Source: Octopus vulgaris (Eukaryota). From it: a stretch of DNA of 64,000 nt. The stretch covers positions 161,572,001 through 161,636,000 of the forward strand of contig OX597816.1 in assembly GCA_951406725.2 (NCBI GenBank), written 5' to 3'. The stretch's first letter is position 1; every line of letters begins with the position of its first letter. The notes under the pieces were generated by a model. That model saw only the letters and a program-made list of their open reading frames with translations, did no database searches and was not told the origin of the DNA. The position numbers were made by a program, and so were the translations under genes. Positions 1 through 64,000 of this stretch are shown piece after piece.

Positions 1-192
1 GTTTACATGTGTTATAGTGTTCAGTTTGTTAAATGTAGACATGGTTATGTCATTTGAATGCAGTTATATATGCAGGATGAGTATTTGTGTGTGTATGACA
101 CAGAGTTATAAAATATACATCTGTAATACATATAGGTATGTGTGTACTATGTAGATAGATATATTTTTCATTATATATACATACATGGTAAT

Positions 193-836
193 GGTGTCAC
201 ATAAAAAGCACTGGTGCTGGTGCCACATAAAAAGCACTGGTGCTGGTGCCACATAAAAAGCACTGGAGCTAGTTCCACATAAAAGCACTGGTGCTAGTGT
301 CACATAAAAAGCACTGGTGCTGGTGCCACATAAAAAGCACTGGTGCTGGTGCCACATAAAAAGCACTGGTGCTGGTGCCACATAAAAAGCACTGGAGCTA
401 GTTCCACATAAAAGCACTGGTGCTAGTGTCACATAAAAAGCACTGGTGTTGGTGTCACATAAAAAGCACTGGTGTTGGTGTCACATAAAAAGCACTGGTG
501 TTGGTGTCACATAAAAAGCACTGGTGCTAGTGTCACATAAAAAGCACTGGTGCTAGTGTCACACAAAAAGCACTGGTGCTGGTGCCACACAAAAAGCACT
601 GGTGCTAGTGTCACATAAAAAGCACTGGTGCTAGTGTCACACAAAAAGCACTGGTGCCGGTGTCACATAAAAAGCACTGGTGCCGGTGTCACATAAAAAG
701 CACTGGTGTTGGTGTCACATAAAAAGCACTGGTGCTAGTGTCACACAAAAAGCACTGGTGCTGGTGTCACATAAAAAAGTACTGGATCTGGTTCCACATA
801 AAAAGCACTGGTGCTAGTGCCACATAAAGGCACTGG
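193..836 (+). repeat. 26-bp minisatellite, ~25 copies (GGTGYCACATAAAAAGCACTGGTGCT)
   Basis: Direct tandem units with period 26; the variant GAGCTAGTTCC recurs 129 bp apart; the unit matches the head of family C elements (5804, 44445). Confidence 0.95.
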
Positions 837-2249: not shown

Positions 2250-2652
2250 CTCCACCAGCATGGGTGCCAGTCAGGCGGCACTGGGTTCAACCACACTTGA
2301 GTGGTGTTTTTTACATGCCACCGGCACGGGTGCCAGTCAGGCAGCACTGGCATCAGGCAGCACTGGCATCAGGCAGCACTGGCATCAGGCAGCACTGGCA
2401 TCAGGCAGCACTGGCATCAGGCAGCACTGGCATCAGGCAGCACTGGCATCAGGCAGCACTGGCATCAGGCAGCACTGGCATCAGCCAGGCTTGAATGATG
2501 CTTTTTTATGTGCCACCAGCATTGGTGCCAATCAGGCAGCTCTGGTGTCGGCCACATTCAAAAGGTGCTTTTTATGTTCCACTGGCACAGGTGCCAGTCA
2601 GGTGACACTAGCATTGAGCATACTTGAATGGTGCTTTTTATGTGCCACCAGC
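2250..2652 (-). mobile_element. Tandem ~60-bp head units of family C element with internal 16-bp VNTR
   Basis: Reverse-complement family C head units (TGCCACCRGCAYRGGTGCCAGTCAGG...GGTGCTTTTTA). Confidence 0.7.
2337..2484 (+). repeat. Perfect 16-bp tandem repeat, ~9 copies (TCAGGCAGCACTGGCA)
   Basis: Identical units; explains the QAALASGSTGIRQHWH repeats seen in three ORFs. Confidence 0.95.
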
Positions 2653-3242
2653 ATATTTTATTTTTTTAAAGTTAGACATTTCATAATCATGGAAGGAGTA
2701 AAATATTTGAGGTGGAGAGGGTCACCTGTTGCTATGAGTTTCAGATAAAATTGTATCTTGCTGTTAGTCAGGGAAATAGAATATGCTACAGTGAGTTAAT
2801 TATTCTTCAAATCATATAGCCATTTTGGATATTGAGTAAATGTCTGGTCCAGTGGCTTGTGAGGCTTTTAACAAATTTTCATTGTGGTGGTTAATTACTC
2901 TTCATTTAACTCCTGTCAATATACATAAGTAGATAAACAAGATCAGCCAGGTTAACGACCTGTCACTTTATAGTTTAACTTATTGTATTTTTTTGTACAT
3001 ATGCTATGAAAACTGGCAGCATAAAGCATAAATTTGTGACTTGTATTTCTTAATAGGAAAGAAAATAGCAAAATTCTGTAGGGCATATTTTATTGTGGTT
3101 GTGTATTATATAACTATAAATAAATTAGGGTTTTTGGTGCCAATATACATGCGATTGTACATTAACATGTGACTATAATATAGTTCATGGGTGTATGTTT
3201 CACTTGATCATTGTAATGGTGTTGTTGTTATTGTTATTATCA

Positions 3243-35977: not shown

Positions 35978-36894
35978 AATTTTTTTTTTTTGTTAAATTG
36001 TTTAGAGTTTCCAGATGTTTCTAAAAAGTATTTTGTTGAAAAAAAGTTATTTGATTGAGTAGGAATAAGAAGAATGGGAAAGTTTGAAAAAAAAAAAAAA
36101 TTGTTTTTTTTTCTTACATACATTATTAGAATGAAATATTTTTTATGAGAAAAATGTATTACAAATGTATGAGTGGTAAATACTAAGGAATATCTTAATG
36201 CATTCATAATGTGTGTAATGTATATTAGTTAAACCCCCCCACACACACACACATTTAAACCTCTCTCTCTCTCTTTTGTCTTTATCGTTTACTTGGTTCA
36301 GTCATTAGACTGTGGCCATGCTGTTATGTTATAGGAATGTAAACCATACCGATACCAGTTGTCATCAAGCAGTGGTGGGAGACACACAGACACACAAAAT
36401 ATGAAAGAAAATGGAATTCACAACACTCTTTGTTATTCACTACGATTGTTTCGACCCTTTGTGCATTGTTGCTTCCAGGCCAGTTGTGGGGCATCATAGA
36501 TGCAGATGTTTCTCATCCGGTGACTTGTCAAAAGGCACCTAAGATTTTAATCCCCGATTTGCTTATTTGGATTAGAATACATTTTGGTAGTCATAGTTCG
36601 CTACACATCTACACAAGAAGTTTTATATACATCAGTGGTTCCCAAAGTGGGCAGTGCTGCCTCCCTGGGGGTGGTGGAAAGATCTAGTGGGGGTGTTGAA
36701 GGGAAGTGGGATGATAATGGGGTGGCTGTGTGGTAAGTCGCTTGCTTACCAACCACATGGTTCCAGGTTCAATGCTACTTTTGTTTATAAGTTCCAGGAG
36801 GACATCTCCTCCAGCTGGTTAACGACACACTGTATGTGTCCAATTAGTATTTCCAAAGGGAAATCATCATTCCCATCTCTAGCCTTACATGAAA

Positions 36895-36939
36895 CACACG
36901 GACTCAGGTTTCTGGATAGCAACCCATCATCAGCGTGTG
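36895..36939 (-). ncRNA. Type I hammerhead ribozyme
   Basis: Minus strand CACACG-CUGAUGA-UGGG(UUGCUA)UCCA-GAAA-C(CUGA)G-UC-CGUGUG: perfect 6-bp stem I, intact core, GUC cleavage triplet. Confidence 0.85.
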
Positions 36940-37185
36940 ACAATCACCAGCTAGCAATGCAAACTCATTCCAAACGCAAAATACTATATGCATTTCCAGT
37001 TACAAACTGTCACTGATCAAACTGTCCGCCACATTTAGGTGGCAAATATACTTCACGGTTCCATGCTGCTCAGAGATTTATTATTTCTTGTTTCTCCTTT
37101 TTCGAAATCAGCGACAGTTTGTCACTGGTAAAAGCATAAAGCATTTTGTGTTTGGAATGAGTTTTCATCCCTAGCCAGTGATTGT

Positions 37186-37230
37186 CACATGCTGATGATG
37201 GGGTACTACTCAGAAACCCAGGTCTGTGTG
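37186..37230 (+). ncRNA. Type I hammerhead ribozyme
   Basis: CACAUG-CUGAUGA-UGGG(GUACUA)CUCA-GAAA-CC(CA)GG-UC-UGUGUG: intact core, stems kept through GU wobbles, predicted cleavage after C37224. Confidence 0.82.
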
Positions 37231-38189
37231 TATCGCATAAGGCTAGAGATGACAACGATGATTTCCCTTCGCAAATACTAATCGGACACAGACAGTGTGT
37301 CATTAGCCAGCTGGAGGAGATGTCCTCCTGGGGCTATAGCCAACAGTAGCATCACCCTCTATGGGTCTGCCACGTTTTGGTGGCAAATATCTTAATCTTA
37401 AATGTATATTATTAATTCAAGTCCCCCCCCCCACACACTTAAATGCCTTTCTTTCTCTTTTTTCAATGAATTCAACATCTTCATTGATAAAAGGAATTTA
37501 GAATTTAGGCTGTTTGCTGAGTGAGAAACACAATTCGACCCAATACTCACAATTCTAATCTGATGATTAGCACAATGATACTTCTAGCTACGAGAATATT
37601 ATCTGTAAGATTTCCTTTCCTTCAAGTTGAGAAAGAGAGAGAGAGAGAGACAGAGACAGAGTGACAGAGAAGGAGGTGGTGGGGGAGTTGTATTCATAAT
37701 TTAGGCATTGTTTCTTCTCCATGAAGGTCACTAAAATAACCCATTCTTCATGACTAAGAAAACTTTACAAACGCAAAAAGAGAGGAAGAATGATTCTTTG
37801 TTTATTGGTTGGTCGTAGGTCATAAGACTAACCTAAAATGAATGCTATGAGAAGGGTGGGAGTGGGTGGGTGGTTGGGTGGGGTGGGGGAGTTTCAGTAA
37901 ATGTTTTGGTTGTGGTTTAGTTATAGTAAGCAGAATGCTGGGATACAAGAAACTTAAGTGCTGAGTTGAACGCTGGGATACGATGATAAAATAAATAACA
38001 GAGTGCTTTATGTATTGTCAGTGCCAGTAAGCTAGTGGAATTCTAATGACAATATATTAACTATTCATCTATTTACTATAAAGAGCACTTAATAAATTTA
38101 TTTTTAATTTATATATATATATTAGCTATTAGTGACAGATACATACATACATACATACATACACACATACATACATACATATGCATTCA

Positions 38190-44672: not shown

Positions 44673-45055
44673 TTAAGAGAAGTGATGTACTCTTCCCTTG
44701 TAAAGGAGAAACTCTAATGCTGTCTTCTTTATTCATTTTCATTTTGTACAAAGTATCTACAGCTAACTGTCACTCATGGTGTACCAAACTTTTGCTAATT
44801 GTTTTAGATGCCTATACAGGCATGAGCAGATGTGGACATTCTCTCAACCCTCTCATCCTTGACCAAGTGGTGCCACACCTATGATGTGACCAGTGGAGAG
44901 AGAGCAGGGAGAGAGAGAGGTACATCAGCAACTAGTTGTGTAAACTGGAGCAGCATGTGTCCTTTGTGTGCTCAAGGACACAATATACTGCTTTGACCAG
45001 GAGTTGAACCCTTGTCTTTACAATTGTGTGTCAAACATTCTAGGATGAATTTTAA

Positions 45056-56614: not shown

Positions 56615-57735
56615 ATAACCATGGCAATTTGCCTACCTACTTTTCAAACTTCATTCCACGCCCACCTTGTCCAAGAGAAACATTGCAAGAAGAGATTATT
56701 TTTGCCTTTGAACTAAGACTATCCATTATATGATAATACTAGTTCAGCATTATTGATAAAACATTATTTGAAGCATAAGATTTATCAACAAATGATTTAT
56801 AATGAAAGAAGGAGAGATGTCATCTATTTCTTACTTTGTTGTTTAAATTTCACTACCATTAACTTTGTATTTTAACATAGCTGTTCTGGTTTAGCCCTAG
56901 GTCAGTTTCAATAAAGCAAGCTTATGATCAAGAGCATTCCATTTGTAATCATGTTATTTTTCAGTCTCAGTGTACCCAAGACCAACTACATTGGTGAATG
57001 TGTTTTTGTAAGATGGTTTTTACTTAAGAGAGATTTAACTGTTATTTCTATTCCCAACAGGTTAAGCAACCATGTCAAAGCTCTTTCAGTAGCTTAGTTT
57101 ATATGTCAAGTATTTAATTATTTTTTCATTATCTTTTCACTTTCCAGATTCTTTTAAAAGTTTGAATCAAACCTAAGTGTTTTCTATTGTTCTCTTGGTA
57201 CATAAGGAGTCAAAAAGCATTTGCAGGTCTCTTTCTTAATGATAATTACTCATAAAACAGAACCCACTTGTAACTACTTAAATGATTTATAACCACTTAA
57301 ATCGCTATGAAGCACAATTCTAAGCTGATGGTTTTGCTTGAATTTTTACTATAGATCAATTAAAAACTCAATTGTTAGCAATTTTGCACACCAGCTACAA
57401 ACTGTGTTTTTTATTGCAATTATTTTCCTCACACTTCTCAGATTTTACAAAACAATATTGTAATCATTAGTTACTTTCTTAACGAAAATTTCTCCACTTT
57501 GGTGTTAATCATTTAGACATAGTGTAATTTTAACCTGACACTTAATTTATCCATTGTTATTTTTTCTTGTTCCTTCAAACAGACATGGTACTCCTCTAGT
57601 AGGCTTCATCTTAATGTTAACCTCTTCATTCTTGATATGTGCTTAATTTATGAACTTTTTAATGCTACATTTTGTTTGTATCATTTATTTTTTTACTAAT
57701 TCTTTTATTCATTTTTTTTTTCAGAATGGCTAAAA

Positions 57736-58169
57736 ATGGCTAAAGCTGGCCAATACACCTTAAAGGAGAAGATACAAGAAGAATTTTTGGAATGTAAAAT
57801 TTGTTTTGAACCTTATGTGAAACCCAAAGCCCTTCCTTGCTTGCATTCATTTTGTGCAGAATGCCTAAAGGATTATGTTCGAAAAAATCCTGACAAAAAC
57901 GCTATGCGTTTTTGCTGTCCAATTTGCCGGAAGGAGATACCAATGCCACCTAGAGGCATTGATGACTTCCAAGACAATTTCTGGCTTCTTAGCCTCTCTA
58001 ATTCTTTGGAAGAAGGCGAAGATGAATGCCGCACTTCTTGCAATGGGAAAAATGCACGTAGTAATGTGTGGACAACTCAAAAATGGAACCACCAAGCAAA
58101 AAATGTAACTACAGCATCAAACCCATTGTATCCACCCTCATTCCAAGAACTAAAACTCCGTGGATTTGA
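57736..58169 (+). CDS. First coding exon of a RING-HC E3 ubiquitin ligase (TRIM2/TRIM3/TRIM56-like or RING-NHL type); CDS continues beyond the phase-2 donor
   Basis: C3HC4 RING: FLECKICFEPYVKPKALPCLHSFCAECL...CPICR followed by TRIM-like GIDDFQDNFWL; acceptor T10CAG ends 57724; donor GA|GTAAGT after 58169, so the ORF stop at 58173 is intronic. Confidence 0.92.
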
Positions 58170-58281
58170 GTAAGTTGTTCATAATTTTTTTTTATTTGAT
58201 GTTAAGAAACCATTGTTGTGGTGGTCGTCACATTTGCTTTACTTCCTTATAGCTTTGATAAAACTGAATAGCACAAGAGTA

Positions 58282-58521
58282 CAGTTCTATATTTAAGAGA
58301 TGAAGAATTATGTACATTATTTACATTCAACAGATATTTGTCCTCATCTTGTTTGTTGTTAACACAACGATTCGGCTGATATACACTCTAGCCTTCTTCA
58401 GGTGTCTTGGGGAAATTTTGAACCTCAAGACACCTGAAGAAGGCTTGGAGGGTATATCAGCTGAAATATTATGTTAACAACAAACAAGATGAGGACAAAT
58501 ATTCGTCAAATGTAAATAATG
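58282..58521. mobile_element. Foldback Penelope-like pseudo-LTR pair with 13-bp TSD and decayed hammerheads
   Basis: ~97-bp inverted arms 58313-58409 / 58426-58523; TSD TAGCACAAGAGTA at 58269 and 58522; each arm carries GACAC-CTGAAGA-AGGCT..AGCY-GAA(A/T)..TT-RTGTT. Confidence 0.8.
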
Positions 58522-59441
58522 TAGCACAAGAGTATTGTACAAAAGTGAGGAAAGTAAACAGTATTAGTTATATATTGGTTCAATCCAGTTCAGTTGTTTT
58601 GTTTTCCTTGCTGAGTCTGGAGGGAGGGGCAATGCGTATGATTTTCTATGTTGTCCACGACTGATAAGCTTGATATCATTAATATTCCATTGAAACTGTT
58701 GTGAGTCAACTCTGTCAGAGAAGACATGAGCTAGAAGAAGATTGCAGGAGGCCAATGTCCTGGAGGAGGAAGGACTGGGTATATAGGGTGGTGGTGGATG
58801 CAACTAGAGTGATAGAAATGGGGAAGACTAGTAAGTCAGGGATGCTTGAGTGGAGGAGGTCTAGTCCAGCCACTTTGTGGAACAGAGGCCATAGTATACA
58901 AATATACTTCTCTTCTCCTTCTCCTTTAGAAATCTATGACCTTGTGCTAGTGTATGAAACCATTATTTGGGGATGGTCAAGCAGCCTCTGAGACAGTGAG
59001 GTTGCTTACTGCTCAATTGAATATCCTTAAAAAAAGTCATGAAGACCCACAATTCCACAGCTAACTCATTTCTAATATCCCTTGCACTTCCTTATTAAGA
59101 CATTATTATTATTACTGCTATTCTTTTTAATTGCTTATTGCTGTAATTGTTGTTGTTGTTAATCTTGTTAATCAATTTCCACCATTGATTAGTTTTCAGT
59201 TTTCAAAAACAACATTGCTTACAAAAATATAGTAAAAATATAATTTGATCAGATATTCTTATCCTGTGATCTTTGAACTATTATTATTGAATTTCAAGAG
59301 ATCAGTCATTTATACGATAACCCGAGTTTATTTAACCCTTCATAACCATATTTCTAATTGAAACATGCTTTCTATTTGTTTTTAATCCAAGAATTCAGAT
59401 GGGTTTAGTAAAATATCATCATTATAGTTTTAATATCTACA

Positions 59442-63066: not shown

Positions 63067-63103
63067 TTAGTACAATTATTGAATCAAAGTTGTTTCTTAT
63101 TAA

Positions 63104-63828
63104 CACTTTTGTTTCCGTATTTACTTTGAAATGCTCTGTGTTTCTTTCAATTAATTTTAAATATAACAAAGAATTTAGTAAAATAACTTAGTTATCATTA
63201 AGCTAGTGTTAGGAACATAAATTGTGACTAAGGGTTGGTAGAAAATTTTAATTCAAAACTTATGAAACAAGACATTTGTACTGCAGTGCCAGAAGTGGTT
63301 TCAGCTGGGTTGGTATCAAAAGGGTTAAGAATTGTTTCTCTATTATATATTTTAACCCCTTTGTTACCATATTTCTATTGAGATGCTCTATGTTTCTTTC
63401 AATTAATTTTAAATATAAGAAAGAATTTAGTAAAATAACTTAGTTATCATCAAGCTAGTATTAGGAACATAAATCGTGACTAAGGTTTGGTGGAAGATTT
63501 TAATCCAGAACTTTTGAAAACAAGCCATTTGTACTACAGAGCCAGAGACGATTTCAGCCAGGTTGGTACCAGAAGGGTTAAATTAATCCTTTGTTAAATT
63601 AATCATTTGTTGACCCTTTTGTTACCATATTTCTGTTGAGATGCTCTCTGTTTTTTTTTTCCAGTTAATTTTAAATATAACAGAATTTAGTAAAATAACT
63701 TAGTTATCATCAAGCTAGTGTTAGGAACATAAATTGTGACTAAGGTACGGTGGAAGATTTTTTTTATGAAACAAGACATTTGTACTACAGAGCCAGAGGT
63801 GGTTTCAGCCAGGCTGGTATCAAAAGGG
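63104..63828. mobile_element. Three same-orientation piggyBac-like MITEs (63104-63324, 63356-63577, 63614-63828)
   Basis: Each ~220 bp with C(C/A)C..TTGTT.CC / GGTA..A.AAGGG ends; the first two flanked by TTAA, the third by TTGA on both sides. Confidence 0.88.
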
Positions 63829-64000
63829 TTGAAGGAGGGTAGGGATACAGAGGAGAGATAATTTCAAACCAAATTATGTTTTGGGCTCAAGGCCAGCAAG
63901 TTCAGGTGAGAGGTAAGTCGATTCTGTCAACCTCAGTGCTTGAGTGGTACTCAACATTTTGCCTGATGTGTTAACAATTTGCCAGCTCACTGCTGTGTAG

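What the first reader, a model, noticed from the sequence alone, without database searches (positions are those of the whole stretch)
37024..37393. 341-nt terminally redundant unit compatible with a circular-RNA retrozyme
Seen: GTCCGCCACATTTAGGTGGCAAATATACTT (37024) recurs as GTCTGCCACGTTTTGGTGGCAAATATCTT (37365), period 341, enclosing one hammerhead and no meaningful ORF; the repeat itself is a GCCAC/GTGGC hairpin. Established: metazoan non-LTR retrozymes are tandem hammerhead repeats of a few hundred nt that yield circular RNAs. Inference: cDNA of slightly more than one round of a ~341-nt circle, or a tandem Penelope pseudo-LTR.
Basis: partly seen in the sequence, partly recalled or inferred. 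Interest (0 to 1): 0.72.

Follow-up and report, generated by a model that had tools for sequence, protein, structure and literature searches.

The report
Aged two-armed hammerhead retrozyme insertion
This is the right half of one old, mutated copy of an abundant non-coding repeat that carries a predicted self-cutting (hammerhead) RNA motif and was likely pasted in by Penelope-type jumping-gene enzymes, an ordinary kind of animal genomic parasite, and nothing here shows that it came from or makes a circular RNA.

Summary
The repeat (23/26 identical, period 341), its hairpin and a canonical type I hammerhead (37178-37236) are real. A 246-nt inverted copy with a second hammerhead sits head-to-head on the left (36772-37017, 84.5% identical), and the right arm runs 38 nt past the left arm's end. 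That inverted-copy-plus-tail layout is the published Penelope-like (PLE) insertion footprint. Public DNA runs lay 2,429-3,119 contigs on the unit in three organism labels. Other copies read across the unit junction and invert at varied points, which argues against a MITE. This copy lacks 17 nt that other copies have, so the family period is about 358, not 341. No RT or GIY-YIG frame was found in the window. With one hammerhead per strand, this locus cannot release a monomer by double cleavage. The template was likely longer than one unit, but an uncleaved tandem transcript explains that as well as a circle does. Verdict: a new member of a known kind (animal non-LTR retrozyme / non-autonomous PLE). 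The scan already noted this layout many times in this genome, including 355-360-nt units.

The parts
36772..37017 (-). Left (inverted) arm: 5'-truncated copy of the unit, equal to 37107-37352, head-to-head with the right arm
   Evidence: 207 of 245 aligned bases identical, 38 mismatches (26 transitions, 12 CpG-type), 2 gaps;
36889..36947 (-). Second type I hammerhead motif (core starts 36933, predicted cut after 36901); helix III loop no longer palindromic
   Evidence: 16 of 17 drawn pairs valid; descriptor hit
37018..37026 (+). Inversion junction: 9-nt re-copy of 37003-37011 whose last three bases (GTC) are also the first three of the right arm
   Evidence: Sequence; template slippage/microhomology is inferred
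37024..37364 (+). Right arm, one full unit (341 nt here, about 358 nt in other copies), GC 44.6%, no ORF
   Evidence: fold z -3.26, 0 of 100 shuffles as stable; 17-nt difference near 37070
37028..37043 (+). GCCAC/GTGGC hairpin, first occurrence, 4 nt inside the 5' truncation point
37178..37236 (+). Canonical-architecture type I hammerhead: 5-bp distal helix, internal loop, 6-bp helix I, core CUGAUGA (37192-37198), 4-bp helix II with 6-nt loop, GAAA, 2-bp helix III with 4-nt loop, predicted cut after C37224
   Evidence: 17 of 17 drawn pairs valid; descriptor hit, 0 in 30 shuffles; 77% of laid depth in X1 has G at 37220, which makes helix III palindromic; cleavage untested
37353..37390 (+).
   Evidence: Left arm ends at the 37352 equivalent; 30-40-bp one-sided tail described in PMC8557442 and PMC11167929
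36719..36771 (+). Flank, not part of the element: head of a very abundant dispersed repeat (SINE-like, label recalled), cut exactly at the element's left end
   Evidence: Other copies in the window and in four runs continue past 36771 with different sequence

Best explanation
36772-37390 is one aged copy of a high-copy, protein-free repeat of about 358 nt with a predicted type I hammerhead, laid down as two head-to-head arms plus a 38-nt tail, likely by Penelope-like reverse transcriptase/endonuclease supplied in trans. Shown: the two arms, both hammerhead motifs, the tail offset, the absence of an ORF, the family's abundance, and that other copies cross the unit junction and invert at other points. 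Inferred: a PLE enzyme cut both target strands and primed two cDNAs on a longer-than-unit RNA, one from the site just 3' of the hairpin (about 37390) and one 38 nt upstream (37352). The first cDNA ran about 367 nt, through the uncut or religated ribozyme site, and stopped just past the next hairpin. The second ran 246 nt. The two were joined with a 9-nt re-copy and a 3-nt overlap. An uncleaved tandem transcript is my preferred template (about 60%), ahead of a circle (about 30%) and a template jump on a linear monomer (about 10%). Both arms have since mutated independently. With one ribozyme per strand the locus is likely a dead end that would give a long imperfect hairpin if transcribed, not a monomer circle.
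For: Inverted arm and 38-nt offset. The same layout is described for PLEs: an inverted 5'-truncated copy and a 30-40-bp tail at one end (PMC8557442; PMC3846280), and hammerheads 100-700 bp apart on opposite strands (PMC4209133); here they are 259 bp apart. A purified PLE cut and extended both strands from two internal RNA start sites that bound the tail (PMC11167929). Family: 2,429, 2,931 and 3,119 contigs laid at 80% in runs X1, X6, X10. Loose ends before 37024 carry the unit's own 3' end (23 contigs in X1, 30 in X10), and those behind 37353 run into the hairpin (15 in X1, 21 in X6). Long pieces span 37033-37231, 37068-37324 and 37191-37387 in X10, so the short unit is a family trait. 6 of the 15 joints shown change strand, at varied places (53 more not shown); 36842->37302 and 36954->37257 have this locus's head-to-head polarity. 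At 14 listed positions in 37129-37253 where over half of X1's depth differs from the right arm, the left arm has the family letter at 12 (read by hand), as expected of independent decay. 0 of 144 frames scanned matched an RT or GIY-YIG family.
Against: No partner PLE was found; the whole genome was not available, so mobilisation by a PLE rests on layout alone. No contig with two same-strand hammerheads was seen (pieces listed are short). Rfam misses the motif, and the hammerhead fold is not the minimum-energy fold (-7.6 against -16.0 kcal/mol for the 59-mer). Position 10.1-11.1 is U-A in both arms, not the G-C called highly conserved in PMC4209133. No target-site duplication of 6 nt or more at the two ends, and the rest of the interrupted left-flank repeat is not on the right, so the empty site is unknown. 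The left junction and the inversion junction are covered in other runs by only 26 and at least 24 letters on one side, under the tool's 31-letter rule. Fixed 3' ends across the family could not be read from the cut tables.
Confidence: 0.8

Rival explanations
1. One reading: the arms were copied from a covalently closed monomer circle (about 358 nt) made by double hammerhead cleavage of tandem source copies and ligation, so the right arm is 1.07 turns of rolling reverse transcription. This shares the PLE step with the best explanation and differs only in the template.
For: The right arm exceeds one unit and runs 200 nt upstream of the predicted cut, which a doubly cleaved linear monomer cannot template without a jump (sequence). 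Unit size, GC under 50% and a self-paired fold match retrozymes shown to be circular in coral and mussel (PMC7229834). Circle templates were proposed for PLEs (PMC4209133). Weak hint: 3 of the 9 inversion joints shown have an end at 37221-37226, at the predicted cut; a mismatch of this copy at 37220 could also clip alignments there.
Against: An uncleaved tandem transcript gives the same DNA. Ribozyme-dead PLE RNA inserted equally well in vitro (PMC11167929). The overlap length is what a PLE tail plus truncation gives.
Confidence: 0.3
2. The locus is the stump of an autonomous PLE: pseudo-LTR ends of a long RT-coding element with an internal deletion, not a self-standing mini family.
For: All layout features come from autonomous PLEs. 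Summed depth is highest at 37290-37340 and 37024-37057 and lowest at 37144-37179, as if ends outnumber middles. 827 loose-end rows were not shown.
Against: Independent contigs from three organism labels run through the low-depth middle (table 8). The hammerhead has 6-bp and 4-bp helices like canonical motifs, not the 4-5-bp and 7-8-bp helices described for schistosome PLE minimal motifs. No coding frame follows it. The tool warns that depth is not copy number.
Confidence: 0.12
3. A DNA fold-back/MITE element with 246-nt terminal inverted repeats; the hammerhead-like motif is a passenger.
For: The whole locus is a long inverted repeat.
Against: The ends are offset by 38 nt, there is no TSD, inversion points vary between copies, and copies cross the unit junction.
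Confidence: 0.03
4. Chance repeat or assembly artefact.
For: Two of the three junctions are not bridged by 31 letters on both sides in the pieces listed.
Against: The shuffle controls. The arms differ by 15%, which an assembler would not create. The right junction is bridged in X3 (37309-37620) and X6 (37343-37520).
Confidence: 0.01

Closest known systems
Metazoan non-LTR retrozymes (coral 220-240 bp, mussel 350-390 bp; PMC7229834; vertebrates, bioRxiv 10.64898/2026.07.22.740005)
   Same: ORF-less unit of a few hundred nt, GC under 50%, one canonical-size type I hammerhead per unit with a 2-bp helix III and (in the family majority) palindromic loop, self-paired fold, many copies, copies that cross the unit junction.
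   Different: This locus holds one hammerhead per strand, so it is not an 'active' tandem by the preprint's two-ribozyme criterion. It is two-armed and decayed. Cleavage and circles are untested. Helix II opens with U-A (C at 37199 in about 60% of laid depth), not G-C.
Insertion units of endonuclease-bearing Penelope-like elements (PMC8557442, PMC3846280, PMC4209133, PMC11167929)
   Same: Partial tandem, inverted 5'-truncated copy head-to-head at the 5' end, 30-40-bp tail at one end, hammerheads on opposite strands 100-700 bp apart, TSD optional.
   Different: No RT/GIY-YIG ORF in the element or the window; the partner element is not identified.
MITE / fold-back DNA transposons (features recalled)
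   Same: Short, non-coding, high copy, long inverted repeat.
   Different: Offset ends, no TSD, variable inversion points, direct-repeat unit junction and a ribozyme motif.

Membership tests
Metazoan non-LTR retrozyme | Type I hammerhead with canonical helix sizes | tested here: met
   Rfam models did not detect it
Metazoan non-LTR retrozyme | Non-coding unit of about 150-450 nt, GC under 50% | tested here: met
   341 nt here, about 358 in the family; GC 44.6%; no ORF
Metazoan non-LTR retrozyme | Many genomic copies | tested here: met
   2,429-3,119 contigs laid per DNA run against 1 of 64 kb in the window; not an exact copy number
Metazoan non-LTR retrozyme | Head-to-tail tandems with two or more same-strand ribozymes | tested here: inconclusive
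   Not met at this locus; other copies cross the unit junction, but no listed contig holds two ribozymes
Metazoan non-LTR retrozyme | Self-cleavage in vitro | not testable with these tools
   Bench assay needed
Metazoan non-LTR retrozyme | Monomer-length linear and circular RNA in tissue | not testable with these tools
   Only contigs were available, which cannot show RNA ends
PLE insertion unit | Inverted 5'-truncated copy adjacent to the 5' end | tested here: met
   36772-37017
PLE insertion unit | 30-40-bp tail at one end only | tested here: met
   37353-37390, 38 nt; one locus only
PLE insertion unit | Fixed family-wide RT start sites bounding the tail | tested here: inconclusive
   Loose-end tables were cut (827 and 991 rows not shown)
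Autonomous PLE | RT plus GIY-YIG ORF | tested here: not met
   0 of 144 non-repetitive frames of 65 aa or more in the window; rest of genome not available
MITE | Terminal inverted repeats flush with both ends, a TSD and fixed ends among copies | tested here: not met

The most novel reading that the evidence does not exclude
A cephalopod-type retrozyme family still has intact tandem sources that release a ~358-nt circular RNA, and PLE enzymes copied that one circle from two start sites into both target strands. The near-perfect tiling of the arms here (left arm starts 12 nt upstream of where the right arm stops) and junctions at the predicted cut site would then be a genomic record of circle-templated, twin-primed PLE integration, through a hammerhead variant with a pyrimidine at position 10.1.
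Probability: 0.2. Interest if true: 0.55.

Novelty: new member of a known kind. Interest (0 to 1): 0.2.

Why it matters
As a single decayed copy it matters little. As a family it adds one more case where a canonical-hammerhead retrozyme carries the PLE integration footprint. The 2026 preprint names invertebrates and the life cycle as its gaps, so a genome-wide end map of this family could test where PLE reverse transcription starts and whether circles are the template. Younger families noted by this scan in the same genome would serve that test better than this locus.

Tried and rejected
No whole genome was held, so tandem arrays, empty sites and partner PLEs could not be searched. Rfam: 0 matches at gathering level over the window, and 4 unrelated sub-threshold matches at E up to 10 over 36600-37500. 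Pattern scans: 0 in viral contigs, 0 and 0 in metagenome contigs. No RNA holder listed. X8 is only guessed to be RNA; it laid 87 contigs including junction-crossing ones, but dispersed DNA copies explain these, so it says nothing on circles. The summed depth profile was not used for copy number or element ends, because this copy's mismatches and 17-nt loss clip short contigs. Two other inversion joints at 37023/37024 were not taken as a preferred stop, because the query itself begins the unit there. A TSD was sought and not found (longest shared word 5 nt). A long TSD between 36189-36277 and 37386-37463 was considered: 1 of 193 random segments scored as well, the match is partly low-complexity, and skipped 36150-36286, so it is unresolved. 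An ATG at 37198, like the ORF start at helix II in the anole PLE, stops within 30 codons. Literature searches listed no paper describing a cephalopod retrozyme; the supplement of PMC7229834 could not be read and the preprint's supplements were not seen, so either may list one. Earlier-finding look-ups by sequence, near and relatives returned nothing.

Full report
Observation. They agree at 23 of 26 ungapped positions with period 341, while 200 dinucleotide shuffles of 36900-37500 gave at most 20 of 26. Each forms a small hairpin. Between them lies a type I hammerhead motif: distal helix 37178-82/37232-36, internal loop, 6-bp helix I, core at 37192-37198, 4-bp helix II with a 6-nt loop, GAAA, 2-bp helix III, predicted cut after 37224. 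All 17 drawn pairs are valid. A strict descriptor gave 3 hits in the window and none in 30 shuffles. Against it: Rfam found nothing, the ribozyme fold is not the lowest-energy fold, and helix II opens with U-A instead of the usual G-C (PMC4209133). The helix sizes match the 'canonical' metazoan motif of PMC4209133 rather than its minimal PLE motif.

Directly upstream is an inverted copy of 37107-37352 at 36772-37017: 207 of 245 bases identical, 12 CpG-type differences, and a second hammerhead with 16 of 17 pairs valid. The arms are head-to-head. The junction holds a 9-nt re-copy (37018-37026 repeats 37003-37011) that overlaps the right arm by 3 nt. The left arm stops at the 37352 equivalent and the right arm at about 37390, a 38-nt one-sided tail that contains the hairpin. 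On the left, the element cuts the head of an abundant dispersed repeat at 36771; other copies of that repeat continue differently. No TSD of 6 nt or more was found. The element is therefore 36772-37390.

The family. No genome was held, so I used public runs. At 80% likeness, 2,429, 2,931 and 3,119 contigs of X1, X6 and X10 (organism labels A, C, E) lay on 37000-37520, while the right flank drew single contigs. Position 37024 is not a fixed 5' end: 23 contigs in X1 and 30 in X10 carry the unit's own 3' end before it, and joints such as 37338->37024 with 26 letters between, or 37353->37027 with 14, return a period of 341 in window coordinates. Other copies have 17 more bases near 37070 (21-28 contigs per loose-end row; record 9 of X10 shows 17 gaps), so the family period is about 358. 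Pieces in X10 cover 37033-37231, 37068-37324 and 37191-37387, so the short unit is not peculiar to this locus. Of 15 joints shown (53 not shown), 6 change strand at varied places, and one search shows two more with this locus's polarity. At 37220, 77% of X1's depth has G, which makes helix III palindromic as in dimer-competent hammerheads; both arms here have lost that symmetry. Other majority letters turn G-U pairs into Watson-Crick pairs (37235, and in part 37190, 37210). Reading together by hand, the left arm has the family letter at 12 of 14 listed positions in 37129-37253 where most X1 depth differs from the right arm (58 further variant rows were not shown). The right junction is bridged in X3 and X6, so the insertion is shared by at least labels B and C and is old; the other two junctions are covered by fewer than the 31 letters the tool asks for.

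Surroundings. None of 144 non-repetitive frames of 65 aa or more matched an RT or GIY-YIG family; the only clear domain is a RING finger at 57700-58170. A second, unrelated two-armed repeat with degenerate hammerhead-like cores sits at 58308-58529, so the layout recurs within 64 kb. The host looks like an octopus-type animal, from recalled repeat motifs and from earlier AI notes; I did not test this.

Mechanism. PLE insertions are described with a partial tandem, an inverted 5'-truncated copy at the 5' end and a 30-40-bp tail at one end (PMC8557442, 12 of 16 passages; PMC3846280, 12 of 13 passages), and with hammerheads 100-700 bp apart on opposite strands (PMC4209133, parts 1-2 of 4). A purified anole PLE cut and extended both target strands from two internal RNA sites that bound the tail, and it did not need ribozyme cleavage (PMC11167929, 9 passages and the second half of the main text). 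I infer two cDNAs primed at the 37390 and 37352 equivalents and joined at their far ends. The right arm is 367 nt long and extends 200 nt upstream of the predicted cut, so a doubly cleaved linear monomer is a poor template. An uncleaved tandem transcript or a ligated circle fits, and the DNA cannot tell them apart. The left arm starts 12 nt upstream of where the right arm stops, which suits twin priming on one multimer but also follows from fixed start sites plus a stop near the hairpin. Three of nine inversion joints shown end at 37221-37226, a weak hint of cleaved templates that alignment clipping could also cause. Because each strand has one ribozyme, this locus cannot release a monomer by double cleavage.

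Comparison and novelty. The unit matches animal non-LTR retrozymes in size, GC, fold and ribozyme type (PMC7229834, 12 of 29 passages and Results part 1 of 3; supplement unreadable). A 2026 preprint argues that such elements are non-autonomous PLE derivatives and counts solo monomers as likely inactive offspring (10.64898/2026.07.22.740005, parts 1-3 of 5; supplements not seen). Tandem two-ribozyme arrays, cleavage and circles were not demonstrated here, so membership rests on sequence features. Seven searches listed no paper on a cephalopod retrozyme; PMC10886601 (3 passages) was irrelevant. Earlier notes of this scan describe the same two-armed layout many times in this genome, including 355-360-nt units; they are unchecked AI notes, and I could not test whether they are this family.

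Verdict. Real, already explained at the level of class: an aged, two-armed, retrozyme-type insertion likely made by PLE machinery. New member of a known kind, interest 0.2. The circle reading stays open at about 0.3.

Noticed in passing
window 58308-58529: Second two-armed (head-to-head) repeat, arms about 105 nt and 85% alike, each with a degenerate hammerhead-like core (CTGAAGA..., at 58434 on +); unrelated in sequence to the 37-kb element.
   Followed up: partly
window 26945 (+): Single minimal-type hammerhead motif with an extra A before helix II and no helix III loop, as described for PLE minimal ribozymes.
   Followed up: partly
window 36189-36277 and 37386-37463: About 90-nt look-alike on both sides of the element, partly low-complexity; 1 of 193 random segments scored as well. 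Runs X1 and X2 carry a longer allele at 37396-37400 that looks closer to the upstream stretch; X3 and X9 lack 6 bases at 37389. Unexplained.
   Followed up: partly
window 36632-36771: Nested fragments left of the element: a stretch starting CAGTGGTTCCC that resembles a hAT-type transposon end (recalled), then a SINE-like head; neither continues on the right of the element, which suggests a target deletion.
   Followed up: no
window 57700-58170 (+): Frame with a RING finger (PF13445 E 6.4e-10, PF00097), likely a host exon; the only clear protein domain among 144 frames.
   Followed up: no
window 186-836 and 63100-63830: Tandem repeats of about 103 nt and about 250 nt; the latter has dispersed copies at 45048 and 49006.
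   Followed up: no
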